IMG/VR virus record: IMGVR_UViG_3300028388_003908
Span: 1-64,000 of that record
From: a virus
Reading direction: 5' to 3' (one strand)
Length of the DNA: 64,000 bases
Below are positions 1,634 to 24,810 of the stretch, in pieces. The position numbers and the translations under genes were made by a program. The notes under the pieces were generated by a model. The model had not been told where the DNA came from, did not search any database, and was given only the letters and a program-made list of their open reading frames with translations. Positions within the stretch are counted from its first letter, which is position 1. The number at the start of each line of letters is the position of its first letter.

Positions 1634-1728
1634 ATGTGCGAGGTCTCATTTCTTAGAGCAATCGTTTTTTTTTTATTTATGAGCGCTCTAGCAGAGCAAT
1701 CATGTCAACATGAGAAAGGATCTTTCAC

Positions 1729-2187
1729 ATGAGAAGAACAGCCAGTGAAGTAATCAGAGATTTGGAGATGCGCGTAGCGCGCCTTGAAAGACGGGCGACA
1801 GTTAATGGGATTGTAGGCGGGTTCGCTGTCAATCCAGGTTCCCCTTACTTTAAGGTTAAGGAGAAAACTTGGTCTAATGCTTCAGATTTTTTTAAAGATG
1901 TAAAATCTTTGCTCAAGATCAAGATCTATGATCGTCAGATGGAGGAGGACGTTAGTTTTACACACATCCTCGTATCGGGCGGTAGGACCTTCTATGAGTC
2001 TAAGATTAAGCCAGGTGATGCTATAATGTTCGCGGCCACTAATCATGACGATGAGAGAGACCAGAGTGGAGATCCTTTCCTTATTGTGTCTCAAGAGTCC
2101 TTGATAAATAACCTAGGAATAACGGAGTCGATGCTAAAGAAAGTTCTCGCAAAGAACCTCCCCGGAGCCGACCTCTATTATCTATGA
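1729..2187 (+). CDS. MRRTASE-leader cassette protein 1
   Basis: N-terminus MRRTASEVIRDLEMRVARLE is shared with 4273 and 24532. GAAAGGA SD. Confidence 0.85.
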   Translation: MRRTASEVIRDLEMRVARLERRATVNGIVGGFAVNPGSPYFKVKEKTWSNASDFFKDVKSLLKIKIYDRQMEEDVSFTHILVSGGRTFYESKIKPGDAIMFAATNHDDERDQSGDPFLIVSQESLINNLGITESMLKKVLAKNLPGADLYYL

Positions 2188-2190
2188 GGA

Positions 2191-2227
2191 TAAGGGGTTG
2201 ACGATTTAATAGGTCGTCAACTTTTTT
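2191..2227 (+). terminator. cassette terminator (copy 1)
   Basis: GTTGACGAT/GGTCGTCAAC hairpin plus T-run. Near-identical to 4725..4766. Confidence 0.8.
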
Positions 2228-2268
2228 CGGCTAAGAATCCTTGGGTCTTCTGATCGCGCTCTGAGAGT

Positions 2269-2431
2269 AATCATTTAAGACCTTTGATGCCGACAAATTC
2301 GACACCGCCGACACCGCCTTCCTCGTCTACGCGATAGAGCGCGATCTGACGGCGGTTATGAGAATATCCTTTGAGCTTGTGCCAGCGATCTGTACCACTC
2401 AGAGAAGGCATGGTCCAGACGCGACACCCGT
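2269..2431. repeat. direct repeat partner of 1480..1633
   Basis: Direct alignment by eye. Confidence 0.9.
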
Positions 2432-3698
2432 TGTACTCGTCCGATCTCATCTTGTGTCCGTGCCAGTGACCTGTGAACCAATCCCAAGCTCCCTTGCACT
2501 CCCCCCAATCTTGAGCGCGATCCGATGACATGAGCGCAGGTAAATCCTTAGGGGAGATCATGTCCCCATGATTGAAGCCGATCATGGAGTTACCATGTCG
2601 TACATACGCGCTTCCGTGCTTGGCTATGTCTATGTCAATCCTGTCGTCTGATCCGTAGCGCGCTGATAACATCAAACCTACGCTTAACCCTAAGAGACGG
2701 TCGTGATTTCCAGGGATAGCGACCACACGAACTGGAGCGACCTCTTTAAGCCCTTCGATGATCTGCTCTAACAGAGTAAACGCGACCAACAACATCTCTA
2801 TAGGCTCTCCGTCTTGATCTTGAGGGGTGCCTTTTGTGGTCGTACCGAGATAATTATCCACATGGATCATGTCACTACCGCAGGGTAGAATCCACATCTT
2901 AGGCGCGCCCCATTTAGCGACCGCTTGTCTCATCGCCTCTAAACAAGTCTCGACAGCGACCTTTTGAGTAGTCTCAAGATCCCAACCGCAGACGCCTCGC
3001 TTACCTACATGAAGATCCGTTAGACCGATGATCACAGCGTGAGCGCCCTGCTCTAAATACATCTCCATCTTGATGGTCTTGGCTGCCGGTCTTTGACCTA
3101 GTATCTGCTCAAGACGAGGGAGCAGGATCTTCTCTATGATCTCATATTTCTCCGCTTGTCTCGTCATGTGCTTGTAATGAGCGCGCTCTGCCTTGACCAA
3201 CACCCTCTGCTCTTTAGCTCGCAGTAGCGATTCAGCTAAGCTCTCCTCGTCTTCTGTGGCTATCGTCTCGTCTGTATAAGGGGTAGAATCATGTGTCTTA
3301 CCAAGACATTTTAAGATGTAAATTAGCGATGGTCTAGAGAGACCGTATTTACGACAAACCGCGTTAAGAGAGAGACCTCCGGTGTGATTGGAGTAATCCC
3401 AAATCAACGCCTCGATCTTCTCCTTTGAGACAGACGCGCTACCTGTCTGACCCGGCATAGAATGGAAAATGTAAAGACCTCTCGCCTCGTCAAACGTATA
3501 TGACGCGCTCTCTTTAGAGAAGAAATCCGTGCTTGTTTCCTCCTTTTCTTTTTCTGAAGGTATCGTTCTGTACGCATATTTATTGGTGTAGATCTTCTTG
3601 CGCTCTAGCTTACCTTTACGACCCCAATCTGTGATTGTGTGTCTGCTGACCTTTAGTATTTTAGCAAGCTCTTGGCAACCGTACCATTTCCTGTCCAT
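2271..3698 (-). CDS. N-terminal HTH plus calcineurin-like metallophosphoesterase/nuclease
   Basis: Motifs DLHVG, GSDMIHVDN, PGNHD, NHGD and TGHWH. MerR/excisionase-like HTH at the N-terminus. AGGAGG SD. Confidence 0.85.
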   Translation of the reverse strand: MDRKWYGCQELAKILKVSRHTITDWGRKGKLERKKIYTNKYAYRTIPSEKEKEETSTDFFSKESASYTFDEARGLYIFHSMPGQTGSASVSKEKIEALIWDYSNHTGGLSLNAVCRKYGLSRPSLIYILKCLGKTHDSTPYTDETIATEDEESLAESLLRAKEQRVLVKAERAHYKHMTRQAEKYEIIEKILLPRLEQILGQRPAAKTIKMEMYLEQGAHAVIIGLTDLHVGKRGVCGWDLETTQKVAVETCLEAMRQAVAKWGAPKMWILPCGSDMIHVDNYLGTTTKGTPQDQDGEPIEMLLVAFTLLEQIIEGLKEVAPVRVVAIPGNHDRLLGLSVGLMLSARYGSDDRIDIDIAKHGSAYVRHGNSMIGFNHGDMISPKDLPALMSSDRAQDWGECKGAWDWFTGHWHGHKMRSDEYNGCRVWTMPSLSGTDRWHKLKGYSHNRRQIALYRVDEEGGVGGVEFVGIKGLK

Positions 3699-3788
3699 GT
3701 AGACCTCCTAGGACTATAAAGGATGTCTAACATCAGATATATAAGTACATAATATAAGCTACTCAAGCAGGAAAGGATAAAACACTCG

Positions 3789-4217
3789 ATGGAAGCTCTG
3801 CTCAAAGGTACGCTTAAAATCATAGATGTTGAGATAAATCCTAGACATTTACTTAATCTAGCATTACTCGCCGGCAAAGAAGGATTAACCCCTCTACCTG
3901 AGGATAAAAGGCATCTAACGGTCATACATCAGTCCGTCTTAAAAGACCTCTCCAAGCGCGTAAAGAAAGGCTATCAGATGGTCTTAAACGATCTACCTGA
4001 GATCTCTCTAGATAAGGCGACATACATGGTCGTGTCACATGAAGATCGAAAGACCTTGAGACTCGTCTTATCAGAGGAAGATCAGGTATCTCTCGGGTTA
4101 TGGCGTGATCTGTTTTGTGAGAATAATGGGGTCGTCTTAGATGATCTTGAGCGCAACAGGATCTTTCACATATCCTACGCTAACGTGACCGGTAATGTCT
4201 CGGATTCTGTCCGATAG
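3789..4217 (+). CDS. 2H phosphoesterase family protein (Acb1/T4 57B-like candidate)
   Basis: Two Hx[T/S] motifs (RHLTV, FHISY) about 85 aa apart in a 142 aa protein. Confidence 0.65.
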   Translation: MEALLKGTLKIIDVEINPRHLLNLALLAGKEGLTPLPEDKRHLTVIHQSVLKDLSKRVKKGYQMVLNDLPEISLDKATYMVVSHEDRKTLRLVLSEEDQVSLGLWRDLFCENNGVVLDDLERNRIFHISYANVTGNVSDSVR

Positions 4218-4272
4218 TTTTTTTTCATTTATGAGCTCTCTGAAAGAGCAACCATAACGAAAGGATCTTCCT

Positions 4273-4674
4273 ATGAGAAGAACAGCCAGTGAAGTCCTAA
4301 GAAGCCTTGAGATGCGCGTAGCGCGCCTTGAGAATCGTAAGACCGCTTACTCAAAGCAAGCCATGAATCTCCAAGACCTCAGTGATTTTACCTATGATGA
4401 ATTGCAGGAACGGGAAGCCCGCATGGAACGAAAGAAGCTAGAGCAAATCAGGAAGCTCTCTAAACTTCTTAGAAGACACAGGATTGTTCACAATGTGAAC
4501 TTAGATTATAATAGTATCAGCACCAAAACCTCTCCAGAAGAGTTAGCCTCTCTTTTCGACGGTAATTGGACGGCCCGTAACGAAACCCTCTACATTCCTG
4601 GCTTTAAGGAAATGTTCTATGTGCAGAAAACGCGGACTGGTTGGGAGATTTTCGTTGAGATTTTGCTGTACTGA
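4273..4674 (+). CDS. MRRTASE-leader cassette protein 2
   Basis: N-terminus MRRTASEVLRSLEMRVARLE. Upstream and downstream flanks are homologous to cassette 1. Confidence 0.85.
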   Translation: MRRTASEVLRSLEMRVARLENRKTAYSKQAMNLQDLSDFTYDELQEREARMERKKLEQIRKLSKLLRRHRIVHNVNLDYNSISTKTSPEELASLFDGNWTARNETLYIPGFKEMFYVQKTRTGWEIFVEILLY

Positions 4675-4724
4675 TCAAGTTTGCTACTGATTCAGTGTAA
4701 AAGAGGTCGTGAGTACAGAGCACA

Positions 4725-4766
4725 TAAGGGGTTGACGATTAAAAAGATCGTCAACCCTTTTTTTTT
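4725..4766 (+). terminator. cassette terminator (copy 2)
   Basis: AGGGGTTGACGAT/ATCGTCAACCCTT hairpin plus T-run. Confidence 0.85.
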
Positions 4767-4811
4767 ATTGCAGGGTGCAGAGCGCTGTACTATAAGAGAG
4801 CTACCCATTAA

Positions 4812-4884
4812 GGGCCTTTAGCTCAGAGGTTAGAGCATCCGGCTCATAACCGGACGGTCCTCGGTTCAAGCCCGAGAGGGCCCA
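4812..4884 (+). tRNA. trnI: tRNA with CAT anticodon, probably Ile2 (lysidine type)
   Basis: Acceptor GGGCCTT/AGGGCCC and anticodon arm TCCGG-CTCATAA-CCGGA. It lacks initiator features; Ile2 versus elongator Met is judged by resemblance only. Confidence 0.9.
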
Positions 4885-4919
4885 CTTCTTTGAAATCTCC
4901 GGTCAGTAATTTAAAATCT

Positions 4920-5052
4920 CTAAGGGGAGATATTATCCCCTTAGGTAGCTCTTGGGTTATGCGTCTACGGTGGTCGGCAATACAGGCTTAAATCAGTACG
5001 GTCTGGTGGCACTTTGGGGATTAACCGCAAAGACAGTCAGACGCGCTAGTCC
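4920..5052 (+). ncRNA. unassigned structured RNA segment
   Basis: Hairpin CTAAGGGGA/TCCCCTTAG, then a long-range stem GGGTTA-GCGTCT...AGACGC-TAGTCC enclosing a CTTTG/CAAAG hairpin. No ORF. Confidence 0.45.
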
Positions 5053-5154
5053 TCCTTGCTCTTGTTGTTCCGAAGAGTAGAGCGAAAACGGAACGCTTAT
5101 GTGAAAGCGCTAAAGGTCAGCGTCTAAGAAGGTTCGATTCCTTCCTTTCGCTCT
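5052..5154 (+). ncRNA. pseudoknotted tRNA-like RNA, copy 1 (manA-like)
   Basis: GCTCTT-gttgttccg-AAGAGT hairpin whose loop pairs with CGGAAC. Closing stem AGAGCGAAA/TTTCGCTCT. T-arm GAAGG-TTCGATT-CCTTC. Confidence 0.7.
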
Positions 5155-5235
5155 CAAGAGAGGATCATCTTTGTTGTTGGGGTGTGTTTAAATCTCTCTT
5201 GAATAGTCTCTTCCTGTTGCTGTGAGGGCAGGATT

Positions 5236-5338
5236 CTCCTTTCCCGTTGTTCCGTGGGATTGAGACGAAAAACGGAGCGCTTATGTAGAAGCGTAGATTG
5301 CTACATCCTAACGGGCTCGATACCCGGCTTCTGCGTCA
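5236..5338 (+). ncRNA. pseudoknotted tRNA-like RNA, copy 2 (manA-like)
   Basis: Same architecture with covarying stems (TCCC/GGGA; CGGG-CTCGATA-CCCG). Ends CCGGCTTCTGCGTCAC. Confidence 0.7.
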
Positions 5339-5354
5339 CACACACACACACACA
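5337..5354 (+). repeat. (CA)9 microsatellite abutting the SD
   Basis: CACACACACACACACACA directly followed by AGGAG. Confidence 0.95.
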
Positions 5355-5365
5355 AGGAGACATAT

Positions 5366-5572
5366 ATGTCCGAAAAGAGCAGTAAGAACGGTTACGAGGT
5401 TCGTGAAAACCTACTTAGCATGGCTATCGGAATACTCTCTGAGCGCGATAATAAAGAGCGCGAGAATGAGTATCTGAAGCCCGAAGGTCAGCGTCAGCCT
5501 ATCAAAGGCTATGATCTTGAGGAGGTGTTGGCGACTGCTGAGAAGCTATACGGCTTTGTAAGCAGAAAGTAA
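5366..5572 (+). CDS. small conserved phage protein (KNGYEVR...AEKLYGFV type)
   Basis: 68 aa with a strong SD. The pattern is recalled from phage hypothetical proteins. Confidence 0.8.
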   Translation: MSEKSSKNGYEVRENLLSMAIGILSERDNKERENEYLKPEGQRQPIKGYDLEEVLATAEKLYGFVSRK

Positions 5573-5606
5573 CCTGCTGAGGAGGTAAAACTCCTCCCCT
5601 AAATAT

Positions 5607-5679
5607 GCGATCATAGCTCAGTTGGTAGAGCATCGGTCTTACAAACCGAGGGTCACAGGTTCAAGCCCTGTTGGTCGCA
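5607..5679 (+). tRNA. trnV: tRNA-Val(TAC)
   Basis: Acceptor GCGATCA/TGGTCGC and anticodon arm TCGGT-CTTACAA-ACCGA. Confidence 0.95.
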
Positions 5680-5681
5680 CT

Positions 5682-5734
5682 AGCTCTAGTCTTTTTTCCT
5701 TTCCTGAGCGTTAGACAAGGGCTAGAGCTTTTTT
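5682..5734 (+). terminator. long-loop terminator hairpin
   Basis: AGCTCTAGTC...GGCTAGAGCT plus T-run. Confidence 0.7.
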
Positions 5735-5762
5735 AATAAACTGACCGAAGGTAAATCACTGA

Positions 5763-6137
5763 ATGAACATAACCCAATGCCTAGAACAGCATGACGTTTT
5801 TCATGTCGATAAGGAAGAACACGCGCAGGCATATCTGCTCGATATTGACGGCTTGTTCTATCTCTCTATCTATTTCGGAAAAGACGCCTGCTCCTCTCAT
5901 AGTGACAGAGAAGCGTTATTGCCTTTAGAGGATTATCTTGAGTTTGAGGTAGCGTTCATAGACGATGGTTTTAAGCCTCTTCATGTAAGCTCTCTCATAC
6001 GAGAACACGGCACAGGTCAAGAACAATCTCTATTGGATCTGTTTGATCTTAACGATAGAGGCATGGAGATCTTGCCTTTCGTGTCTATAGAGAGCGCGAT
6101 GAAGATTAAAGACGCTCTGATTCGCATCTTGTCATAA
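5763..6137 (+). CDS. hypothetical protein
   Basis: 124 aa ORF with a GAAGG SD. Confidence 0.7.
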   Translation: MNITQCLEQHDVFHVDKEEHAQAYLLDIDGLFYLSIYFGKDACSSHSDREALLPLEDYLEFEVAFIDDGFKPLHVSSLIREHGTGQEQSLLDLFDLNDRGMEILPFVSIESAMKIKDALIRILS

Positions 6138-6192
6138 TATAAAGTAGAGACAGCGGGTTCATGTCGAACCCTACTAGACGTAAAGGATAAAC

Positions 6193-6708: not shown

Positions 6709-6716
6709 GACTTCAG

Positions 6717-6726
6717 TATTATAAGA
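6717..6726 (+). promoter_or_regulatory. TAnTATAAGA promoter motif
   Basis: TATTATAAGA. The motif recurs at 4788, 14396, 15724, 16358, 18399, 19123 and 24844. Confidence 0.6.
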
Positions 6727-6731
6727 GATAC

Positions 6732-6808
6732 AGAGCCTCTGACCTTTTCACCTTTTTTACGATTTGAGCGTTGTCTTTTTGGTGCGACAGGTCATAGGCT
6801 CTATTTTT
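6732..6808 (+). ncRNA. putative ~75-nt hairpin sRNA or attenuator
   Basis: AGAGCCT-TGACCT...AGGTCA-AGGCTCT stem with a long loop and T-run, immediately after the promoter motif. Confidence 0.45.
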
Positions 6809-6820
6809 TAAGGATATTAT

Positions 6821-7135: not shown

Positions 7136-7183
7136 AAAAGTCTTGCTCTTTAAGGATTATTCCTTATAGTCAAAAAACCTCAT

Positions 7184-7266: not shown

Positions 7267-7269
7267 TTA

Positions 7270-8116: not shown

Positions 8117-8574
8117 AACGCTATGCAGGATTAATCGACCCGAGCGGTCCTACTCAATCTGAGTGGTATCAGATGGAGAAGATCGGCAAGCATCTGCACC
8201 AGCGCGGATACGAGCTTAAAAGCGCTTGTCAGAGCGTTAACCCGTTTCTTGAAGGGTCTCGTACTCCTTACGAGAGTAAGCCCTATTTACCCGCAAAAGA
8301 ATGGGCGTTAGAGATGGCGTCAAGCGTCTGTCTTGAACAACCATTGGAGAAGATGGTGAGCGCTGAGATAGAGAAGGTTCTATCTTACGTTCATGTCGTC
8401 ATAGACGAGGAGGGATCGAAAGTAGACTTTCTCGTCTATTGGGCCGACCATGAAGACAGACACCCCCTGCGCTATGCTTTAAGAGTAGCTAAAGCGCAGG
8501 GGGTGTCTGCTTATAATCTTAGAGATCCAGAGCAGAAGAGGAGCTTTGCCTCTATGCTCTCAAATCTAGATTAA
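8113..8574 (+). CDS. degenerate SLOG/DprA-like Rossmann-fold protein
   Basis: Overall pattern YAG...GYELKS...YLP...VDFLVYW...ALRVAK..GVSAYNL matches phage SLOG proteins, but the Gly-rich motifs are lost. ATGA overlap with the upstream gene. Confidence 0.5.
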   Translation: MKRYAGLIDPSGPTQSEWYQMEKIGKHLHQRGYELKSACQSVNPFLEGSRTPYESKPYLPAKEWALEMASSVCLEQPLEKMVSAEIEKVLSYVHVVIDEEGSKVDFLVYWADHEDRHPLRYALRVAKAQGVSAYNLRDPEQKRSFASMLSNLD

Positions 8575-8890
8575 AGGCGGCTTAGAACCTTCTCGGTCAT
8601 ACCTACAAAATTAACCCCTACCTTCTTCATTGGGAAGCTGGCAAGAAGCTCGGTATCACCGTACTCATCTTCTCTCTCAAAAACGAGCGCGTCCTTGCGG
8701 GGCTCGTATCTCATGTAAACATTATCCTCAAAGTCAAAACCTCTTGACCACACGGTAGCGCCGGTGCTGGAGTATTCTAGCTCCCATCCGCCGCGGATCT
8801 TAACACCAACAAGACCTCTGATGGCCACGTTTGCAGGTAGACGATCCTCCATGTCCCAAGACGCGGTGCGTCTATTACCGCGCTCAAGAC
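8571..8890 (-). pseudogene. 5'-truncated MRRTASE-leader cassette gene (member 4)
   Basis: The frame reads LERGNRRTASWDMEDRLP. Its cassette promoter lies at 11983..12030, on the far side of the R-M insertion. Confidence 0.75.
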
Positions 8891-11800
8891 AACCGAGATT
8901 GGAAATAACAAGATGACTAAGACCTTCATGTCAGAGAAAGATGTTGAGACACATTTCCGTAAGCTCTTGGAAGACGCTACGGGGGCTCAGTTCTTAACCC
9001 TCAAGAAGCTCACAGGGGAGCAGGGTGGTGCTTGGGCTACTGATGGTGTGATTGAGTGGACTGCTCCTTGTTCGACCTCAGTCAAGGTCTTGCTTGAGAC
9101 GAAGTTTGGAACGGACTTGAAGAACCCTCAGACAAGAAGCTCTGTGTTGGCTCAAGCTCTCTACTACTGCAAGAAGTTTGAGAATCGTGGAGAGGACACA
9201 CCAAGCGTGATCTTTGTGGGAGACGACAAGTTCTGTTTCGCGCTTGAGTTTGGCAAGGTGAAAGAGTTTATGGGCGCTCAGATTGATTGGTCGAGAGCGA
9301 CTAGCTCACCCGACAAGGCGTTGACCGAAGCTATTTCTGAGAAGGGTATTTCCCCTCACTTTGAGACAACGCTTGGTGTTGATGGAGAGAGCTTAAAGAA
9401 GCTCTGTGAGGAGTTGACGAAGGGTTGTGTTTATAAGGTGAAGCCTAGCAAGCACAACATTTCAGCGATGTTTCAGTATTGGGTCGATCACATTATCCCA
9501 CAGGGGAAATACACGCCTGTGGAGATGACGGACATTTTCTTTGGGTGTGTGTTCTATACAGAGGAGCAAAAGATTGCTCGCACTCTTAGTGGGAAAGAGG
9601 TCTTGATTGGGGGTCGGGAGTACGAGTTGAACGTGGGTGCTATGAACGCTTGGTTTGAGCGTCGTCAGCGTGGGTTAAAGCCTTCAGAGATTGAGGAGCT
9701 TGTGTCTATGCGAGATCGTATCATTGAAGATGATACGCGCAGACGACAGGGGGCTTTCTATACACCTACGTTATGGGTAGATGAAGCTCACTCTGAGATG
9801 GACAAGGTGTTGGGTTCATCTTGGAGAGAGGACTGCATAGTGTGGGATTGTTGTGCAGGTACAGGGAACCTCACACGCGACTACAAGTTTAAGAACTTGA
9901 TTATTTCCACAGCCGAGGCACCTGATGTTCAAGCTCTGAAGCGAGAGGGATATAGTAAGAGCTTTCAGTATGATTTCTTAAACCCCGAAGCAGAGAGCCC
10001 TTTCTTTGGGGAGGGAGATGGGGACAACGTATTGCCATTGTCTGTGAAGAAGATTTTAAGAGAGGGCGCGAAGGCGGGGAAGCGTTTAGTATTTCTGATT
10101 AACCCCCCTTATGCTACAGCTAATAATGCAGGGGCTAAGGGTACTGCAAAAGCAGGGGTCGCTCAGAGCATCGCGAACGAAGAGATGAAGAAGGCGAAGC
10201 TAGGTGCTTGTTCACAACAGCTTTATGCTCAGTTCTTATTTCAATGCGAGCAGGTAGCCTCAGAGTATGGTTTCAAGCAAAAGAGCGTGGGCGTGTTCTC
10301 GCCTATCCTTTACATGGTAAGTGGCTCTTTCGCAAAATTTCGGCCTTTTTGGTACGAGCGTTATTCTTATCAGTCGGGCTTCATGTTTCAAGCCTCACAT
10401 TTCGCTGATGTGAAAGGGTCTTGGGGGATTGGTTTCACGTTATGGAGTGAAGGCAATACTGACATCACACAGGGCTTTGTTATGACTCTAAAAGGTATGG
10501 AAGACGAGAATGTTATCTCCCTGGGAGATAAGATCCTTTATGCTTCAGATGGTCGAGAGGCTTCTTCTTGGGTAAGAGAGCTTGTTAAGGGTGCTAAGAC
10601 TTTTGACGCACCTCAGATGAAATCAGGGTTAGCTCTTGCCCAAGAAGGAAGAGGGAAGCAGACTTTAGACTCTCTCTTTTACTTGCTCGTAGCAGGAAAT
10701 AATCTGCAACAAGCTGGTCAGCTAACAGCCTTCTTTTCAACTACTTTTTCCAATGCAAACGGTTTATCAGTCTTAGCAGGTGAAGGTTGGCGTAGAGCCA
10801 TCGCCCTTCTCTGTGCTCGCAAACTCATAGCCTCAACATGGGCAAACCAAAAAGACGAGTACTTAGCTCCTCAGACTGAGTTAGAGGGATATGACCAATG
10901 GGTAGATGATTGTCACGTTTATGCGCTTCTTCACAGTGCAAATAACATGACCGCTATGAGAAGCGTTACCTACAAGGGTCAAAGTTATAACATCCACAAT
11001 CATTTCTTTTGGCTCACTCGTAAAGAGGCTATGAAGCTCTACGATGACAACCGAGCAAATGACCTCTATCGTGACGCTAAGATTAACCCTATCCCTTATG
11101 AGGTAGAGGAAGAAATGGGAGAGGACATTACTCCACAATGGCGCAAAGATGGTGACCCTTATTTCTCTCATGTGCTTCCGACTCTTAACCTCTCACCTTT
11201 AGCGAAAGAGATCATGGAGGACTTGAACAAGCTCTTTATCAAGTCTCTCACTCTGAGAGCTTCTACAGGCTCAGTAGAGGAGAAGGGTAAGCAGATTGAT
11301 CTTCACTTGAGCGCGTGGGATAGTGGGATTTATCAGCACAAGAAGTTATGGGCTACAGACGCTACTCTGAAGGCTGATTGGGAAGCGTTAAAGGCGAAGC
11401 ATAGAGAGTTAGCCAAGAGCCTTGAGCATGGTGTTTACACCTATGGGTTCTTGAAGAAGTAAGAGTCTTGGGTAGAGTGGGGTGAGAGCCCTGCTTTAGT
11501 TGACTGCTCTCAGAAAGAGGTTTTGAAATGAGAGTGGTCAACCTGTTGATAGCGAGGCGAATGGGAGAGGGGCTTCCTGTAGTCGATTGTCATATCGTGG
11601 AGTACGGGCTGATTCAGACTCGTGTCGATTGGCTTTCTGACGAGGGAAAAGTCCTAGATCAGATAAGTCAGGTGACTTACGATAGGGAGACATTAGGTCA
11701 CGCATATTCTTATGACGATGAGCTATACACAACCGAGGGGAGCAGAGCATATTTCAAGGGGTACGCTTATGCTCTTACTCTACAGAAGGACACCTATGGA

Positions 11801-11982
11801 TTTCTCTATGGCGCTCATTTCAAGGGTGACGAGTTCTTCTTCTTAGATTTAGTCCATTGGGACAGAAAGCCCCCTGTAGAGCTAACCTCAGAGTTTAGTC
11901 TCGTTTCGTTTATTTCCGTTTGGAAGTTAGCGAAGGGTTTTGAGCTGTCGATGAGTAGTCTCATGCCTTACAAGGGGGTGGG
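8891..11982 (+). mobile_element. ~3.1 kb insertion carrying an R-M gene and a truncated ORF
   Basis: It separates the promoter and body of a cassette gene. Its G/T-rich coding strand looks unlike the flanks. No transposase. Confidence 0.65.
8913..11462 (+). CDS. single-chain restriction-modification enzyme (Type IIG-like): PD-(D/E)xK nuclease plus N6-adenine MTase
   Basis: TDGVIEW...LLETK...LAQALYY nuclease motif; GAFYTP; motif I WDCCAGTGNL; motif IV NPPY. Confidence 0.85.
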   Translation: MTKTFMSEKDVETHFRKLLEDATGAQFLTLKKLTGEQGGAWATDGVIEWTAPCSTSVKVLLETKFGTDLKNPQTRSSVLAQALYYCKKFENRGEDTPSVIFVGDDKFCFALEFGKVKEFMGAQIDWSRATSSPDKALTEAISEKGISPHFETTLGVDGESLKKLCEELTKGCVYKVKPSKHNISAMFQYWVDHIIPQGKYTPVEMTDIFFGCVFYTEEQKIARTLSGKEVLIGGREYELNVGAMNAWFERRQRGLKPSEIEELVSMRDRIIEDDTRRRQGAFYTPTLWVDEAHSEMDKVLGSSWREDCIVWDCCAGTGNLTRDYKFKNLIISTAEAPDVQALKREGYSKSFQYDFLNPEAESPFFGEGDGDNVLPLSVKKILREGAKAGKRLVFLINPPYATANNAGAKGTAKAGVAQSIANEEMKKAKLGACSQQLYAQFLFQCEQVASEYGFKQKSVGVFSPILYMVSGSFAKFRPFWYERYSYQSGFMFQASHFADVKGSWGIGFTLWSEGNTDITQGFVMTLKGMEDENVISLGDKILYASDGREASSWVRELVKGAKTFDAPQMKSGLALAQEGRGKQTLDSLFYLLVAGNNLQQAGQLTAFFSTTFSNANGLSVLAGEGWRRAIALLCARKLIASTWANQKDEYLAPQTELEGYDQWVDDCHVYALLHSANNMTAMRSVTYKGQSYNIHNHFFWLTRKEAMKLYDDNRANDLYRDAKINPIPYEVEEEMGEDITPQWRKDGDPYFSHVLPTLNLSPLAKEIMEDLNKLFIKSLTLRASTGSVEEKGKQIDLHLSAWDSGIYQHKKLWATDATLKADWEALKAKHRELAKSLEHGVYTYGFLKK

Positions 11983-12022
11983 TTTCTCGGTTAGCATGAT
12001 TGCTCTCTCAGAGAGCTCATAA
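11528..12022 (+). CDS. hypothetical protein, probably 3'-truncated
   Basis: GAGG SD. The last ~12 codons are read from the antisense of the cassette promoter. Confidence 0.55.
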   Translation: MRVVNLLIARRMGEGLPVVDCHIVEYGLIQTRVDWLSDEGKVLDQISQVTYDRETLGHAYSYDDELYTTEGSRAYFKGYAYALTLQKDTYGFLYGAHFKGDEFFFLDLVHWDRKPPVELTSEFSLVSFISVWKLAKGFELSMSSLMPYKGVGFSVSMIALSESS

Positions 12023-12030
12023 ATAAAAAA
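11983..12030 (-). promoter_or_regulatory. stranded cassette promoter/5' UTR
   Basis: Reverse complement TTTTTTATTTATGAGCTCTCTGAGAGAGCAATCATGCTAACCGAGAAA matches the regions upstream of 1729 and 4273. Confidence 0.8.
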
Positions 12031-13875: not shown

Positions 13876-13944
13876 ACATCTATCGCTCAAATGGCTAGAG
13901 CGCGTCTCTTGTAGACGGTGCAGGTTCAAATCCTGTTAGATGTG
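13876..13944 (+). tRNA. atypical or degenerate tRNA-like gene (Gln(TTG)-like or undetermined)
   Basis: Intact acceptor ACATCTA/TAGATGT, D-arm and T-arm, but a shortened anticodon arm (CGTCT-CTTGT-AGACG) and a 2-nt variable region. Confidence 0.6.
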
Positions 13945-14813: not shown

Positions 14814-15475
14814 TCTAGCTTCATCGCTTCAAGTAGAGCTTTAACAGAGTTTTTACCTTCCTCTGTGTTGAGGTACTTACGCAGAGCTTTATTGTTATTG
14901 CCTGTCTGCTCTAAATAAACGTCTTGAGTCTTCTGCCAGGTCAGCACATTTCCTGGTCCTGTCTCAAAATCAAACCAAGAAAACTGCTCCACAAGATGTT
15001 GAGCAACTTCTTGTGATTTATAGTGCTGTCCTGTCACTACGACACCACATCTCTTACCTTCTAAAGGGTTCTTCATGCCGTGTGTGACGTGTCGGTTCTC
15101 AAAGGTGTTGAGACGTTCGATGATCTTCTGCATGAGCGCAGAATGACTACCCCATCTTACGCTTGTGCCCCATATCACAGAGTCACACCAAAGTAAGCTC
15201 TCGTAGATTGCGCTCATCTCGTCCTCTCCACCATACTCTTCCGGATTCTCATGGGAGAGCTTATGCGCCCAACAACGATATTCCCCCGAATCTTTATGAG
15301 CGCAGTTCTCCTTTCCGTCGGAATAGCAACTCAGATTAGGGACAATATGAAGCTCGTTGGCATCTATGAACCATAATTCATGCTCTTTCAGCTTCTCGGA
15401 TATTTCGTCTAGGATCATCTTAGACGTAGATCCTTTTTTATGCGTTGTAGTGCTGATCAGTAGAACTTTAGACAT
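14810..15475 (-). CDS. flavodoxin-like NAD(P)H-dependent oxidoreductase (Fe-S flavoprotein/WrbA-like)
   Basis: KVLLISTT...GSTS, a Cys cluster (SCYS...NC...YRCW), CDSVIWGTSVRWG...MQKIIERL, and GKRCGVVVTG. GAGGTG SD before 15475. Confidence 0.8.
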   Translation of the reverse strand: MSKVLLISTTTHKKGSTSKMILDEISEKLKEHELWFIDANELHIVPNLSCYSDGKENCAHKDSGEYRCWAHKLSHENPEEYGGEDEMSAIYESLLWCDSVIWGTSVRWGSHSALMQKIIERLNTFENRHVTHGMKNPLEGKRCGVVVTGQHYKSQEVAQHLVEQFSWFDFETGPGNVLTWQKTQDVYLEQTGNNNKALRKYLNTEEGKNSVKALLEAMKLD

Positions 15476-15496
15476 AAGACACCTCAAGGACGTGTA

Positions 15497-15712
15497 ATGC
15501 GTTTAATCATAACACAAGTTGATAACGGATATATTGTTAGACGCGAGGAGCAAGAATCCGTATATGAGCGCGTCTATCAGTTCCGAGAAGATCTTGAGCA
15601 AGCAGAAGCTCACGCGCTCTATGATCTACTATGGGATCATTTTGAGAGTTGCTTTCAGTCAAAGCACAAGGGCGGTCTTGTTGTGACGATAGAGGAGGGA
15701 GGTAAAGATTAA
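15497..15712 (+). CDS. hypothetical protein
   Basis: 71 aa with an AAGGA SD. I..VDNGYIV start typical of small phage proteins. Confidence 0.7.
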   Translation: MRLIITQVDNGYIVRREEQESVYERVYQFREDLEQAEAHALYDLLWDHFESCFQSKHKGGLVVTIEEGGKD

Positions 15713-15757
15713 GCGCGTGTGCCTACTATAAGACAGACACGCTAAAAGGAGACGATT

Positions 15758-16360
15758 ATGAGATGGTCAGACGAGGAGGTTCTTATCCTCAAGACGTGGT
15801 CTCAATGGGAGACCGCTAAACAGATAGCGGAGCGTCTAGGTCGCTCTGAAGGCTCGATTAAGAATAAGCTCTACGAGGAAGGCATCCTACTACGTCAAAA
15901 GCGACCTCACATCGCGCCTGAGAGATCATGGTCCAAAGAGGACGTTGAGTATCTGAAAAGATACGCTAAGGATACTTCTACAAAGCATATAGCCAAGCGT
16001 CTCGGCAAGAGCATAAAAGCTGTACGGACAAAGGCTACTCGTCTCGGTATCTCGCTACAAAAGCGTCATCGCGCTTGGTCCGATGATCAGGTTGATACTC
16101 TTTTCCGTATGGTAGAGGAGAATCGACCTTGGTCCGAGATCGCTGAGGCGATAGGAAAGAAGGCGGATGTTTGTCGCAAGCGCGCTTATGATTTCATGCT
16201 CAAAGCGGATCATAAGAGACGATGGACACAAGAGGAAGATGATAGATTAAAGATACTTAGAGAAGATAAAGGTATGTCCTTTTTAGAGATTGCGAATCAA
16301 CTCGGAAGGTCTATGCAAGCAACCCGTAAGCGTTATTATCGCATAATCGGGAAGATATAA
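15758..16360 (+). CDS. tandem Myb/SANT-like HTH repeat protein
   Basis: Four repeats of W[ST]xE/D...IA..[LI]G[RK] followed by a basic helix. Confidence 0.8.
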   Translation: MRWSDEEVLILKTWSQWETAKQIAERLGRSEGSIKNKLYEEGILLRQKRPHIAPERSWSKEDVEYLKRYAKDTSTKHIAKRLGKSIKAVRTKATRLGISLQKRHRAWSDDQVDTLFRMVEENRPWSEIAEAIGKKADVCRKRAYDFMLKADHKRRWTQEEDDRLKILREDKGMSFLEIANQLGRSMQATRKRYYRIIGKI

Positions 16361-18026: not shown

Positions 18027-18029
18027 TAG

Positions 18030-19116: not shown

Positions 19117-19156
19117 CTCGGATAGTATAAGAGACGTACCTAAAAGGAGGTACGTC

Positions 19157-21118: not shown

Positions 21119-21223
21119 TTGGAGAGCAAGGAAGATCCTTCCTCACCGGACAAGAAATCTTTAAGGTGCTCCCGCATCTGCGACAAACGAACATCTTAGG
21201 ATTCTTGTCCGGACTAAATCTCA

Positions 21224-21520
21224 TTACTCTGCGCCTGCAATCGCGCCTGCGGTCTCGCCAGCGCTCGCGCCTGCGGTCTCACCTGCGGTCTCGCCTGCAA
21301 TCGCGCCTGCGGTCTCGCCAGCGCTCGCGCCTGCAATCGCGCCTGCGGTCGCGCCAGCGGTCTCACCTGCGGTCTCGCCTGCGGTCTCGCCTGCGGTCTC
21401 GCCAGCGCTCGCGCCTGCGCTCATATCCGAGACGCCCATATCTGTAGCGGTCTTACTACTAGAGCCTCTGCAAGCAGTGAACAGAATAGCGCTTAGGGTT
21501 AGGATCATTAGGTTTCTCAT
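21224..21520 (-). CDS. small lipoprotein made of AG(E/A)x repeats
   Basis: MRNLMILTLSAILFTAC signal with a lipobox, then ~16 tetrapeptide repeats. Confidence 0.75.
   Translation of the reverse strand: MRNLMILTLSAILFTACRGSSSKTATDMGVSDMSAGASAGETAGETAGETAGETAGATAGAIAGASAGETAGAIAGETAGETAGASAGETAGAIAGAE
21230..21420. repeat. 12-bp coding tandem repeat
   Basis: Variants of CGCCTGCGGTCT encoding AGET/AGAI/AGAS. Confidence 0.95.
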
Positions 21521-21576
21521 ATTATAGAGCCTTTCTACTTTTAGGTTTACGACCTGAAAAGCATATAAACAGGCTA

Positions 21577-21948
21577 CTAAAAATGATCTCTCAAAACAGC
21601 GTAGGCGTGTTTGCATATCTTGTGCGTATTGTCGGGGTCGCGCTTTGTCGGCTTCTCTGCGGAGCCTCTCGGGCTGCCGAGTAGATAATCTCCGTTTTGA
21701 GCGTGATACTCAGGCCCTTGATAAATCCAATAATCGCATGAGCAGGTGAGATGTAGGTCAGGATTGGATCGGTCACCCTTTGCTTCAACGGTGACCTCGT
21801 ACTTATCTACTTGGAAGATGATCGGCTCTTTTAGGATTTTATCCTCAAAGCCTTCAACTACGGTAGAGATGGACTTAGCTTTGTCGATGATCTTAGGGTC
21901 GAGCGCGTTGATTATTTGCGATTTTAGGGCGCTTCTCTTGTATCTCAT
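21577..21948 (-). CDS. SWIM-type zinc-finger protein
   Basis: TCSCDYW...ICKH. AAGGAGG SD before MRYKRS at 21948. Confidence 0.75.
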   Translation of the reverse strand: MRYKRSALKSQIINALDPKIIDKAKSISTVVEGFEDKILKEPIIFQVDKYEVTVEAKGDRSNPDLHLTCSCDYWIYQGPEYHAQNGDYLLGSPRGSAEKPTKRDPDNTHKICKHAYAVLRDHF

Positions 21949-22009
21949 GCAACCTCCTTGGTGTCTGCTCATATCCTCTATTATAAAGCGTTAAAAGAGG
22001 ACTAAGACT

Positions 22010-22447
22010 ATGCAGACGTTCGTGCCTTACACCGATCATTATCTCACCGCTCAAGTGCTAGACTATCAGAGACTAGGCAAGCAGAGGATTGAGACGTTTC
22101 AGATACTCAAGTCCTTGTATCTCTACAACTACTTGGACAAGCCGAGAGGTTGGATGAGACACCCTGCGGTGCTCATGTGGAGAGGACATGAGCGCGCCTT
22201 AGTGGAATATGGTGTCGTCATGTGTGAGGTTTGGAAGGAGAGAGGATATAAGGACACGACCATGGAGAAGATCAAGGGCATGGCCAAGTATTTTCCAGAA
22301 TCGAGCGCGAGATTGCCTGATTGGTGGGGAAACGCTCGGGTACATCAAAGTCATAGAGAGCGTCTATTGGACAAGAATTGGGAGCATTACACTCTGCTAT
22401 TTTTAGACGATGAACCTAGCTCTGATTATGTGTGGCCTATGCGCTGA
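22010..22447 (+). CDS. pyrimidine-dimer DNA glycosylase-like protein (T4 DenV/MSMEG_6728 family)
   Basis: MQTFVPY...LD..RLGKQRIE..QIL...W..HPAV.MWRG...P.WWG...H.SH...L..K...Y.WP. Confidence 0.9.
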   Translation: MQTFVPYTDHYLTAQVLDYQRLGKQRIETFQILKSLYLYNYLDKPRGWMRHPAVLMWRGHERALVEYGVVMCEVWKERGYKDTTMEKIKGMAKYFPESSARLPDWWGNARVHQSHRERLLDKNWEHYTLLFLDDEPSSDYVWPMR

Positions 22448-22836
22448 ATCTCTGTCTCTAACGCTTGACTAGCAAAGCGCAAACTCTTCTTTTTGTCTAG
22501 GAACCAATCTGCGATCAGTATTGATGAGAGCGCACCTTCTAGGTTCGGAGAGAGGTCGAATTCCTTTAGCGTCTCACAAAGACTAGGGTTTCTTTTCAAT
22601 CTAAATCTGAACGCTAGATAACGTATGATCGAGACGGAGCGCGAGCGCTCACGATTGACGTACCATAGCGCTTTTTGTAGATCCTCCCGAGAGGTCTCAC
22701 CAGGTTTTTTGCCTGCTCTCAAGATGTACTTGACCGCAGAACCGAGAGAGAAGTTAAGGTCAAAGTCCTCGATAATCTCGATGGCGGGTCTTGTCGAGCC
22801 TTGATAATGTGACCTCTGAGCGCGTCTTGTAGGATT
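22426..22836 (-). pseudogene. DUF3310-like domain without its own start codon (frameshifted or decayed)
   Basis: The frame reads SHYQGSTRPAIEIIEDFDLNFSLGSAVKYILRAGKK...EDLQKALWY, with no ATG, GTG or TTG upstream of the domain. Confidence 0.65.
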
Positions 22837-23255
22837 TTAGATTTACCTTCACCTCTCTCCTCACAGAGACGGTTGAGTTCTTTAAGGAGATGGCCATCAA
22901 GATAGACGGAAACCTTCTTACCTCCCGAGGCATTATCCGTTCTATTGTTAGCGCTCTTAGTGTTATTTAAGAGCTTTCTACGCGCTCTATAAGCCTCGTC
23001 ATTAGCTCTCTTTTGACAGATCTTGGAGCAGTACTTTGGACGATCTTTGGGTCGCACCTTCTCGCAACCGCTCTTTTGACAGAGCGCGTCTGCGGGCAGC
23101 TTTCTCCTAGGCTTGCGTCCTTCGCATCTGTAGTGGTAACAGCGCGTCTCGTCTTCCTTAAAGACAACCCCTCTAGACATGAGATACTTGTTGCATCTCC
23201 ATCCCCATTCTCCGTCCGCGTTCTGAGCCCATAAGGCGATACAGTTATCGTGCAT
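22719..23255 (-). CDS. Cys-rich protein with C-terminal ribbon-helix-helix
   Basis: CQKSGC...YCSKIC zinc motif and KKVSVYLD..LL.EL..LC......S.IL.DAL. AAGGA SD before MHDNC. Confidence 0.7.
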   Translation of the reverse strand: MHDNCIALWAQNADGEWGWRCNKYLMSRGVVFKEDETRCYHYRCEGRKPRRKLPADALCQKSGCEKVRPKDRPKYCSKICQKRANDEAYRARRKLLNNTKSANNRTDNASGGKKVSVYLDGHLLKELNRLCEERGEGKSKILQDALRGHIIKARQDPPSRLSRTLTLTSLSVLRSSTS

Positions 23256-23352
23256 AGTTATATCCTTTTCTTTTAGGTACACTATACAGATCAGTAGTCC
23301 TTTTATCCTGTTTTTTTGCCCGCCTTAATCTTACGTTTAGAGAGTAAAAGAG

Positions 23353-23448
23353 ATGCTAGAAGACACGATGATAACGATGACAGCCTTATCTTACGGATAC
23401 ATTATCTTGACCGCTTTTGGTCAGATACGCAGAGATCTTAAGAGATAA
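23353..23448 (+). CDS. unlisted 31-aa hydrophobic peptide
   Basis: MLEDTMITMTALSYGYIILTAFGQIRRDLKR. A late-type motif lies at 23294..23306 and the stop abuts the convergent gene's stop. Confidence 0.4.
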   Translation: MLEDTMITMTALSYGYIILTAFGQIRRDLKR

Positions 23449-24438
23449 TCAGTTCGAGTCTAGATGCTCTGCGATTAGCTCTGCAAGCTCCTCTCTCCAC
23501 TTAGGAGGACGCTGACCAACCTTGCCGATATAGAACACCTTCCCGACGGAAGGGCTGATAGCGGTTTGGGTGCCTCTCTGTAGCTTGGTCTCAAGCTGAG
23601 CGTAGACCTCACCTTTGCTGTTGATCGCAAAGAATCCGATAGGGGTGCGGAAGTACATAGAGCCGTAGGCGCGCAGGGTGCGCTCATCTACTAGATCTTC
23701 AATATCCTGACTCTCGACAAAAGACGTGTCGATAAATCGGTCACTAAATCCGGTGCGATACTCGGGAGGATCAATATCGAGACCTCGCTTGTAGACGACC
23801 TCAAAGACCTCTCTGGTCTGAAATTCGCTCATGTAGCGAGTGAAGCTCCGGAAATCTCCGAGACCTGAGCGGTAAAGACCGAGGCTGTCGTTCGGCTCAA
23901 GCGCCTTAGCGTCTAGCTTCTTGATCGCGTCCTCTAGCTTTGCCTGCTTAAAGCGAGCGCTCCCGCTGTCTCGGTATTCCTCTTGCTTCTTGATCTCCTT
24001 AACGATACCTGCCGTACCCTTTGAAGGAGGTACCGCGTAGAAATCGTAAGACTGAGATGTTAGCTTGCCCTCGTCATCAATCTTGCGTACCTTGATGATA
24101 GGGAACTCTCTGTTGTCGCTTGGATAGACAATGTTCTCCACCTTAAAGTAAATCGGATTGTCCACAGAGAAATTAAGAGCCTTGCAGTTTCTCATGTTAA
24201 GCTCATGTGAGCATTTATCGGCTCTTACAATCACGACCTCACCGATCTCTAGGGGTCCTCTCTTGGAGCTTGGTCTTCCGCCTTCGGATGAAGAATCCTT
24301 GTAAGGTATGTTAAGTCCTGTAAGCACGGTCTTGAACTGAGCCTCGGTGTACTCATCCACGTTCTTGTAGAGAGAGCGTAGAGCGCACCAAGTGGCGAAT
24401 TCTTGATCATCTTTTGCTGAGATTTTCTGATAGTCCAT
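23449..24438 (-). CDS. hypothetical protein, probably late/virion
   Basis: 329 aa with an AAGGA SD and a late-type motif at 24475..24488. Confidence 0.75.
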   Translation of the reverse strand: MDYQKISAKDDQEFATWCALRSLYKNVDEYTEAQFKTVLTGLNIPYKDSSSEGGRPSSKRGPLEIGEVVIVRADKCSHELNMRNCKALNFSVDNPIYFKVENIVYPSDNREFPIIKVRKIDDEGKLTSQSYDFYAVPPSKGTAGIVKEIKKQEEYRDSGSARFKQAKLEDAIKKLDAKALEPNDSLGLYRSGLGDFRSFTRYMSEFQTREVFEVVYKRGLDIDPPEYRTGFSDRFIDTSFVESQDIEDLVDERTLRAYGSMYFRTPIGFFAINSKGEVYAQLETKLQRGTQTAISPSVGKVFYIGKVGQRPPKWREELAELIAEHLDSN

Positions 24439-24531
24439 GTCGTTTCCTTTTGAGAGATTAATGTGTAGAGATCTATAAAAGTTCTATTATGTATATCTTC
24501 TTGAATACCATTTCACTCTATGGGGTTAGTT

Positions 24532-24810
24532 ATGAGAAAAACTGCAAGCGAAGTAATCAGAAATCTTGAGATGCGCGTAGCGCGTATGGAGCGCTCAAGT
24601 AGCGCAGACAAGAAGCTCGTTAAGCTGAAATCTTTAGCTCCTAAAGCTATCGCAAATTGGGAGTATGATCCTAAGGACCGGGTGTGGATCGTCACACTGA
24701 TGAGCCCTTATGTTGATTTCCCTCAAAAGGCGATTCAGTTTATGGGTAGAAACTTCAAGAGCGTGTCTTTCAACGGGAGATCCGGAGAGATGTATCTAGA
24801 GCTGCCCTAA
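24532..24810 (+). CDS. MRRTASE-leader cassette protein 3
   Basis: MRKTASEVIRNLEMRVARMER. The 17-mer GAGATGCGCGTAGCGCG is identical in members 1 and 2. Confidence 0.85.
   Translation: MRKTASEVIRNLEMRVARMERSSSADKKLVKLKSLAPKAIANWEYDPKDRVWIVTLMSPYVDFPQKAIQFMGRNFKSVSFNGRSGEMYLELP

What the first reader, a model, noticed from the sequence alone, without database searches (positions are those of the whole stretch)
1662..24810. Modular 'MRRTASE' cassettes: fixed promoter, leader peptide and terminator around unrelated payloads (candidate capsid-packaged effector system)
Seen: ORFs at 1729, 4273 and 24532 share only the first ~21 aa (MR[RK]TASEV[IL]RxLEMRVAR[LM]E), including an identical 17-mer GAGATGCGCGTAGCGCG, and then carry 70-130 aa payloads with no visible similarity. 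Members 1 and 2 also share the 5' flank (T-run, ATTTATGAGC.CTCT...AGAGCAA.CAT...GAAAGGATCTT) and the 3' terminator (TAAGGGGTTGACGAT...TCGTCAAC). A fourth, broken member lies at 8571..8890 with its 5' flank at 11983..12030. In three members the leader ends in a basic-x-Ala site (RRA, KTA, RTA). Established: T4 internal proteins use a short N-terminal capsid-targeting sequence removed by the prohead protease, and the hypervariable IPI locus encodes injected anti-restriction proteins. Inference: the leader is a packaging and cleavage tag, and the conserved flanks let payloads be swapped by recombination, giving a diversifying set of injected counter-defence proteins.
Basis: partly seen in the sequence, partly recalled or inferred. 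Interest (0 to 1): 0.88.

Follow-up and report, generated by a model that had tools for sequence, protein, structure and literature searches.

The report
Shared address tag on jumbo-phage proteins
A group of very large uncultured phages puts the same 23-residue helix at the start of dozens of otherwise unrelated small proteins per genome, made from the promoter type that also drives virion genes; it is most likely a tag that brings variable cargo into the virus particle, as phage T4 does with a few proteins, but neither loading nor cutting has been shown.

Summary
The window's three ORFs (1729, 4273, 24532) share a 23-residue N-terminus and have unrelated payloads. The 143-kb contig holds eight copies, two of them broken. 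A complete 376-kb relative holds about 32, a 227-kb relative at least 10. A profile search finds 995 clusters (50% identity) in public data, nearly all with the tag at residue 1.

Positions 1-20 are almost invariant, positions 21-23 read [RK]-x-[AS], and conservation ends by position 25. In the relative the tag is kept through many synonymous changes, so the peptide is what is selected.

There, 17 members sit behind a 12-nt promoter box that also precedes the capsid, portal, protease, sheath and baseplate operons. None of the eight payloads here has a homologue among the relative's payloads, even at three syntenic sites. A 485-kb sister phage lacks this tag but has nine genes with a different 28-residue tag.

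The "fourth broken member" is only an orphan 5' flank; its coding remnant is not supported. Packaging, cleavage, injection and counter-defence are inferred, not shown.

The parts
1665..1728 (+). Cassette 1 5' flank: T10 run, ATTTAT box, GCTCT-loop-AGAGC hairpin, GAAAGGATCT ribosome-binding site
   Evidence: one of only five copies in the contig
1729..1797 (+). Cassette 1 leader (23 codons); contains the 17-mer at 1765-1781
1798..2187 (+). Cassette 1 payload (129 aa and stop); one metagenome homologue (P0005, 39% identity), no Pfam or PHROG family; AF2 model of low confidence
2190..2227 (+). Cassette 1 hairpin terminator, 87% identical to that of cassette 2
   Evidence: (D16)
4218..4272 (+). 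Cassette 2 5' flank (T8 run, ATTTAT box, hairpin, ribosome-binding site)
4273..4341 (+). Cassette 2 leader; 17-mer at 4309-4325
4342..4674 (+). Cassette 2 payload (110 aa and stop); an orphan in 5.8 billion proteins; confident alpha/beta model (pLDDT about 90) with no PDB or BFVD match
4724..4769 (+). Cassette 2 intrinsic terminator (15-pair stem and T-run)
24532..24600 (+). Member 3 leader (M-R-K-T-A-S-E variant); 17-mer at 24568-24584; lacks the shared 5' flank and terminator
24601..24810 (+). Member 3 payload (69 aa and stop), no homologue found
11983..12030 (-). Orphan copy of the cassette 5' flank, cut off inside the ribosome-binding site; no leader ORF follows
8571..8890 (-).
1480..1633 (.). 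Left copy of a 93-95% direct repeat (right copy 2269-2431, the 3' end of the 475-aa gene) that brackets cassette 1
   Evidence: D2, D6

Best explanation
The 23-residue N-terminus has three parts: an M-R-R-T-A-S-E cap, an amphipathic helix V-I-R-x-L-E-x-R-V-A-R-L-E, and a junction [RK]-x-[AS]. I read it as a lineage-specific protein address tag. Genes that carry it are small, single-gene units transcribed from the phage's virion-gene (late) promoter. The most likely mechanism is that the helix docks the nascent cargo onto a conserved part of the assembling head, such as the scaffold, protease or core. Diverse small proteins would then be built into the particle and delivered with the DNA, and the tag might be trimmed by the prohead protease. 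New payloads arise by recombination within or next to the leader coding sequence, and old ones decay. Shown here: the tag, its selection at the protein level, its numbers, the promoter class in the relative, payload turnover, and tag replacement in a sister lineage. Inferred: docking partner, packaging, cleavage, injection and payload function.
For: (1) Scale and position. There are 8 copies in this contig, about 32 in G001 and at least 10 in G002, with 0 control hits. A profile search finds 995 clusters at E<=1e-3. 170 of 181 retrieved proteins carry the tag within the first 10 residues, and the median length is 143 aa. (2) Residues 1-20 are near-invariant apart from positions 11 and 14, and conservation is essentially gone by position 25. 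In G001 the tag is kept through many synonymous changes: Ser6 uses AGT or TCA, and Arg15 and Arg18 each use five codons. The peptide, not the DNA, is therefore under selection. (3) In G001 the box TAGTTTATTTAT (up to 1 mismatch) occurs 51 times. 46 of these lie 10-125 nt upstream of a gene start and 17 precede members; the reversed control gives 3 and 0. The same box precedes the operons of the capsid protein, portal, protease, sheath-domain protein and a baseplate protein. (4) Payloads: 120 fall into 89 BLAST clusters. 0 of 8 payloads here have a G001 payload homologue, although 104 of 150 proteins of this contig have G001 homologues. Three syntenic sites carry different payloads. (5) Birth and death: two broken members and chimeras with half-leaders. 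(6) The sister phage LR745208 has a capsid protein 86-89% identical but a protease and scaffold-like protein only about 44% identical. It has no copy of this tag but nine ORFs with a different 28-residue tag and unrelated payloads, one of them inside its head-gene block. (7) Precedent: a roughly 10-residue T4 tag encapsidates virtually any protein it is attached to and is then removed (PMC7697877), and 20-24-residue propeptides are cut off in giant phage SPN3US (PMC10052503).
Against: There is no virion proteome, no cultured relative, and no match in 50,697 GenBank phage records. No cleavage motif can be assigned. The junction does not fit T4's (L/I)-x-E rule, and the only A-x-E site (A5-S6-E7) would remove just seven residues. 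The member inside the head-gene block here has no counterpart at that position in G001, so that placement may be chance (about 50% expected). In this contig the promoter argument is weak: the TTTAT box is found before 29 genes against 13 in the control window, and member 3 lacks it. About 30 cargo species per genome is far more than in T4. Payload isoelectric points show no bias. An earlier, similar bold reading in this scan (e1-3065813) is noted as having failed a later check.
Confidence: 0.5

Rival explanations
1. The helix is a docking or oligomerisation module for a partner that is not part of the virion. This could be a hub protein of the phage or host such as a chaperone, polymerase or membrane complex. 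The family would then be a set of intracellular late-phase accessory proteins that are never packaged.
For: The helix has an a/d heptad pattern (I9, L12, V16, L19). AF2 models it as a separate helix before a low-confidence linker. The few recognisable payload domains are nucleic-acid-binding types, WGR and HTH. No cleavage site can be named.
Against: Near-invariance of the charged, solvent-facing residues across about 1000 families is more than a generic coiled coil needs. Members share the virion-gene promoter. A sister lineage swaps the whole tag while its scaffold-like protein and protease have diverged.
Confidence: 0.22
2. The tag anchors variable small domains on the outside of the particle, on the head or on tail fibres, as decoration or adhesin modules.
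For: The same evidence as for virion incorporation: late promoter, many variable domains, fast turnover.
Against: Payloads are small (median 118 aa) and show no Ig-like, lectin or beta-helix families. The recognisable domains are WGR and HTH, which are intracellular types.
Confidence: 0.1
3. The unit is mainly an expression and recombination cassette. In this reading the promoter, 5' UTR, ribosome-binding site and first codons are kept because they give efficient late expression and offer homology for capturing new ORFs. The peptide itself has little function.
For: In this contig the 17-mer is identical in six copies while nine of the eleven codons upstream of it vary among those copies. Half-leader chimeras have their breakpoint next to it. 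The 5' flank is conserved in five copies.
Against: In G001 the same region varies freely at synonymous sites while the amino acids are kept. The 17-mer is absent from other viral contigs apart from chance hits. The RNA folds are not better than shuffles. Rfam finds nothing but tRNAs.
Confidence: 0.08

Closest known systems
Capsid targeting sequence (CTS) of phage T4 internal proteins IPI, IPII, IPIII and Alt (Mullaney and Black 1996; summarised in PMC7697877)
   Same: A short N-terminal peptide shared by otherwise unrelated proteins, late expression, own small transcription units, and variable payload sets. In T4, from my own knowledge, IPI* is an injected anti-restriction protein and its locus is hypervariable.
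   Different: 23 residues rather than about 10, and no sequence similarity. The junction is [RK]-x-[AS], not (L/I)-x-E. There are about 30 members per genome rather than about 4. The head protease is of a different family (phrog_18299; no Pfam match at E<=0.01, so no Peptidase_S77) and the capsid protein is of the phage-G type. Packaging and cleavage are untested.
N-terminal propeptides of giant-phage head proteins cut by the prohead protease (SPN3US gp245, phiKZ gp175; PMC10052503)
   Same: Short propeptides of 20-24 residues exist on small head proteins of a jumbo phage. The leader contains one A-x-E site (A5-S6-E7).
   Different: Those propeptides are not described as a shared tag (PMC10052503). 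The A-x-E site here lies at residue 7, not at the leader-payload junction. Homology of the protease to gp245 or gp175 was not established.
Morons (single-gene units with their own promoter and terminator in phage genomes; my own knowledge)
   Same: Cassettes 1 and 2 are single genes with their own promoter-like flank and intrinsic terminator, set between unrelated genes and tRNA genes.
   Different: Morons are not defined by a common N-terminal peptide, and they are typically expressed from prophages.
Polymorphic toxin systems and encapsulin cargo-loading peptides (my own knowledge)
   Same: The same logic: a constant trafficking or loading module joined to swappable cargo, with recombination at the boundary.
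   Different: No immunity gene follows the payloads, no toxin domains were found, and encapsulin loading peptides are mostly C-terminal and unrelated in sequence.

Membership tests
T4-type CTS / internal proteins | The same short N-terminal peptide on otherwise unrelated proteins | tested here: met
T4-type CTS / internal proteins | Sequence similarity to the T4 CTS | tested here: not met
   The leader consensus has no resemblance to the T4 CTS as I recall it. A tblastn search with the leader finds nothing in 50,697 phage records, which include T4-like phages.
T4-type CTS / internal proteins | The tag ends in the gp21 cleavage motif (L/I)-x-E | tested here: not met
   The residues before E20 are A-R-L-E, so Leu is at P2 and Arg at P3. 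The junction consensus is [RK]-x-[AS].
T4-type CTS / internal proteins | Prohead protease of the T4 gp21 family (Peptidase_S77) | tested here: not met
   The protease at genome 126477-127838 matches phrog_18299 (head maturation protease) but no Pfam family at E<=0.01 and no PDB sequence. Its fold was not examined.
T4-type CTS / internal proteins | Late co-expression with head genes | tested here: inconclusive
   Inferred from a shared promoter box. The signal is strong in G001 and weak in this contig. No RNA data are available.
T4-type CTS / internal proteins | The tag is sufficient for encapsidation and is removed in the head; the proteins are ejected | not testable with these tools
   Needs virion mass spectrometry or reporter fusions.
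phiKZ/SPN3US-type propeptides | Cleavage C-terminal to A-x-E at the propeptide-mature junction | tested here: not met
   The only conserved A-x-E is A5-S6-E7, inside the tag. There is none at positions 18-24.
Moron | Single gene with its own promoter and terminator between unrelated genes | tested here: met
   Met for cassettes 1 and 2. Not met for member 3.

The most novel reading that the evidence does not exclude
Phage-G-related jumbo phages use interchangeable, lineage-specific N-terminal address tags. One is the M-R-R-T-A-S-E type found here. Another is a 28-residue T-L-R-S-K-L-I-R-L-A-H type in the 485-kb sister phage. A third R-V-A-x-R-Y-M type may also exist. On this reading the tags co-evolve with the scaffold and protease and load a fast-turnover arsenal of about 1000 payload families into the capsid for injection. 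The injected proteome, and probably many unknown counter-defence proteins, could then be read from sequence alone.
Probability: 0.35. Interest if true: 0.8.

Novelty: new variant of a known kind. Interest (0 to 1): 0.62.

Why it matters
If the tag does load cargo into the particle, about 1000 protein families of unknown function would at once be labelled as virion-delivered. Up to 7% of the genes of these jumbo phages would be included. That is the class in which anti-restriction and host-takeover proteins are found in T4. The invariant 23-residue helix would also be a ready-made handle for loading foreign proteins into large capsids. The replacement of the tag in a sister lineage offers a natural experiment for finding its receptor.

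Tried and rejected
- **17-mer elsewhere:** a scan of IMG/VR gave only three chance hits in other reading frames.
- **Leader in cultured phages:** tblastn against GenBank phages gave no match.
- **Fourth member at 8571-8890:** rejected.
- **Known RNA element in the 5' flank or 17-mer:** Rfam finds only tRNAs. Fold z-scores are -0.8 to -1.9 for the full flanks and -1.0 for the 17-mer hairpin. Only the orphan flank scores -4.1.
- **uORF in the 5' flank:** the reading frame is not conserved among copies (read by eye).
- **Payload function:** Pfam and PHROGs gave nothing for the window's three payloads. Among 113 family members, Pfam found WGR (2), HTH (1) and HAAS (1). Five of 30 G001 members match a PHROG family, one of them labelled 'polymerase' and the other four of unknown function.
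- **Folds:** the cassette 2 payload has no PDB or BFVD match at E<=0.001. The ESM Atlas lookup of the head-block member gave nothing above chance.
- **Cassette 2 payload homologues with another tag:** none; it is an orphan.
- **Head-block placement of the member at genome 130666:** not conserved in G001.
- **Leader-like segment (G-R-R-A-S-Q...) in the scaffold-like 451-aa protein:** seen by eye but not significant with the HMM.
- **[RK]-T-A-[SG] or T-A-[SG]-E as a proteome-wide cleavage motif:** non-leader counts equal chance expectation.
- **Payload charge bias:** none.
Full report
**What the window is**

The 64-kb window is the first part of a 143,151-bp IMG/VR virus contig, called G000 here, that CheckV rates 46% complete. 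The phage is therefore probably around 300 kb. The window carries eight tRNA genes by ARAGORN and a ninth by Rfam. From 25 to 47 kb it holds very large tail and baseplate genes.

Outside the window, on the minus strand, lies a head-gene block:

| Genome coordinates | Product |
|---|---|
| 133478-135298 | large terminase |
| 131580-133268 | portal |
| 126477-127838 | prohead protease (phrog_18299) |
| 125089-126444 | acidic, scaffold-like 451-aa protein |
| 123420-124298 | 292-aa major head protein |

The major head protein assignment rests on its G001 orthologue, which is 93% identical. That orthologue matches phrog_2522 and is 38% identical to Bacillus phage G gp27. No close cultured relative exists.

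**Checking the observation**

The 17-mer is exact in all three, against 0.26 matches expected by chance. A six-frame regex and HMM search of the whole contig finds eight members. Three are in the window. The other five start on the minus strand at genome positions 88906, 111375, 112353, 115667 and 130986.

- The copy at 88906 keeps only the second half of the leader.
- The copy at 115667 is 79% identical over 141 residues to a metagenome protein. It has an in-frame TGA at a Trp codon, and an upstream ORF runs into it without a stop.
- The copy at 111375 is a deleted and frameshifted version of another metagenome family.

The 5' flank occurs exactly five times. Four copies precede members, and one (12030-11983, minus strand) is an orphan cut off inside its ribosome-binding site. 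The hairpin terminator is shared only by cassettes 1 and 2. Member 3 has other flanks.

The coding remnant proposed at 8571-8890 is not supported. It consists of a five-residue match with no start codon and entirely different codons, and the HMM does not detect it.

**How far the family reaches**

A word-based search with residues 1-40 of cassette 1 returned 76 proteins of 83-266 aa. They match the query at 56-95% identity over the leader region and have varied continuations. Some come from contigs of up to 376 kb.

A degenerate DNA pattern found the leader in 19 further stretches of viral contigs, on 18 contigs. Within whole records it occurs 27 times in G001, a complete 375,691-bp phage, and 9-10 times in G002 (226,698 bp). 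Reversed-pattern controls gave 0. An HMM search raises G001 to about 32.

A profile search of 1.84 billion cluster representatives gave 995 proteins at E<=1e-3 and 146 at E<=1e-10. Of 181 retrieved proteins that match a leader pattern, 170 carry it within their first ten residues. Their median length is 143 aa. Longer carriers are rare.

**Anatomy of the tag**

Across 105 distinct leaders, positions 1-20 are nearly invariant, apart from positions 11 and 14. Position 21 is R or K, position 22 is mostly Q, and position 23 is A or S. Conservation is essentially gone by position 25.

Hydrophobic residues at 9, 12, 16 and 19 give an a/d heptad. AF2 models residues 5-21 (cassette 1) or 5-32 (cassette 2) as a helix, followed by a low-confidence linker.

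Variants in G001 that lack the M-R-R-T-A-S-E cap still keep the second half, L-E-x-R-V-A-R-L-E plus the junction. That half is probably the functional core.

In G001 the 26 full copies differ on average at 6.1 of 19 codons synonymously. Examples include serine AGT against TCA and five arginine codons at two positions. Selection therefore acts on the peptide.

In this contig the 17-mer is identical in six copies while codons upstream vary. Because this is not seen in G001, it most likely reflects recent common descent or gene conversion. The half-leader chimera breaks just beside it.

**Expression class**

In G001 a 12-nt box, TAGTTTATTTAT, lies 30-55 nt upstream of most members. With up to one mismatch it occurs 51 times. 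46 of these are 10-125 nt upstream of a gene start on the same strand, and 17 precede members. The reversed control gives 3 and 0.

The same box precedes the operons that hold the capsid protein, the portal, the protease, the sheath-domain protein and a baseplate protein. These were identified through homology to annotated G000 genes. This is good indirect evidence for a virion-gene (late) promoter.

In G000 the equivalent is only a TTTAT core. Cassettes 1 and 2 have it, as does the copy at 112353. The enrichment is weak, 29 genes against 13 in a control window, and member 3 lacks it.

**Payloads**

The payloads of 120 members fall into 89 BLAST clusters, 72 of them singletons. 108 of the 113 scanned have no Pfam family. 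The exceptions are WGR, HTH and HAAS domains.

None of the eight G000 payloads has a homologue among the G001 payloads, although 104 of 150 G000 proteins have G001 homologues. At three syntenic sites the two genomes carry members with different payloads:

- upstream of the 372-aa / 141-aa / sheath-domain operon;
- converging on a conserved GIY-YIG-like gene;
- beside the homologue of 24887-25273.

The cassette 2 payload folds confidently but matches nothing in the PDB or BFVD, and it has no sequence relative.

**A sister lineage with another tag**

LR745208.1 (485 kb) has a capsid protein 86-89% identical, and portal and terminase 65-69% identical. Its protease and scaffold-like protein are only about 44% identical. 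It has no copy of the leader under patterns that find 7, 27 and 10 copies in G000, G001 and G002.

Clustering the N-termini of its ORFs revealed nine genes that begin with a different 28-residue peptide and have mutually unrelated payloads. One lies between the capsid operon and the scaffold-like gene. G000 and G001 lack that peptide.

G001 also has a smaller second family of N-termini (R-V-A-x-R-Y-M-K). A similar peptide starts the 712-aa head-block protein of G000.

**Interpretation**

A peptide that is held almost invariant on about a thousand unrelated small proteins must be read by one conserved machine. It is also expressed with virion genes and is replaced wholesale in a lineage whose scaffold and protease have diverged.

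The best precedent is the T4 capsid targeting sequence, which loads virtually any attached protein into the prohead and is then removed (PMC7697877). Giant phage SPN3US also removes 20-24-residue propeptides from small head proteins (PMC10052503).

I therefore rate "virion, probably prohead-core, address tag" at 0.5. The weak points:

- There is no proteome.
- No cleavage site can be assigned. The junction fits neither the T4 nor the A-x-E rule.
- The head-block position of one member here is not conserved.
- The promoter evidence comes mainly from the relative.

The rival readings are a non-virion docking helix (0.22), external display (0.10) and a mere expression and recombination cassette (0.08).

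**Comparison and novelty**

This is not a member of the T4 CTS family by sequence, cleavage motif or protease family, but it most likely works like one. I found no paper that contains the leader string.

That matches what I found independently, so the scan has apparently met this tag before. Other notes describe analogous tags in other phage groups, and one such bold reading is marked as having failed a later check (e1-3065813). That is a reason to keep packaging and injection labelled as inference.

I class the finding as a new variant of a known kind.

Noticed in passing
genome 115245-115925 (-), outside the window (L012:11245-11925): A leader-bearing gene 79% identical over 141 aa to metagenome protein P0040 has an in-frame TGA at the Trp-31 codon. 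It has M-G-R-T-A-G instead of M-R-R-T-A-S, and an upstream 86-codon ORF runs into it without a stop. It could be a pseudogene, a read-through or an assembly error.
   Followed up: partly
genome 111199-111375 (-), outside the window: A member truncated to 58 aa. Compared with P0071 it has lost about 37 codons, and the rest continues in another frame.
   Followed up: partly
LR745208.1 (loci L083-L092), e.g. 398171-398575 (-): Nine ORFs of this 485-kb sister phage begin with a different 28-residue peptide (M-T-T-L-R-S-K-L-I-R-L-A-H ... L-L-P-L-L-K-E-A) followed by unrelated sequences. This peptide is absent from G000 and G001.
   Followed up: partly
G001 15198-16274, 97191-97784, 261617-262156, 262153-262650, 276239-276466; genome 127838-129976 (N-terminus) and 139005-139679 (C-terminus): A second short terminal motif (R-V-A-x-R-Y-M-K) recurs at the N-termini of several unrelated ORFs. 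It also occurs at the start of the 712-aa head-block protein and at the C-terminus of a conserved 224-aa protein.
   Followed up: no
window 1480-1633 and 2269-2431: Cassette 1 lies between 93-95% identical direct repeats. The right copy is the 3' end of the 475-aa HTH/exonuclease-like gene (2271-3698).
   Followed up: partly
window 21207-21458: A tandem array of a 12-nt unit. On the minus strand, ORF 21224-21616 reads it as (A/S)-G-E-T-type repeats.
   Followed up: no
window 13876-13944 (+): A ninth tRNA-like gene, found by Rfam (42.5 bits) but not by ARAGORN.
   Followed up: no
genome 111711-112085 (+) and G001 275855-276250 (-): A GIY-YIG-like ORF, 82% identical between the two phages, converges on and slightly overlaps a leader-bearing gene in both genomes, but the payloads differ.
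   Followed up: partly
window 8913-12022 (+): Two plus-strand ORFs of 849 aa and 164 aa, with no G001 homologue and no family, lie between the orphan 5' flank and the ORF at 8571-8852. The end of the 164-aa ORF runs through the reverse complement of the orphan flank.
   Followed up: no
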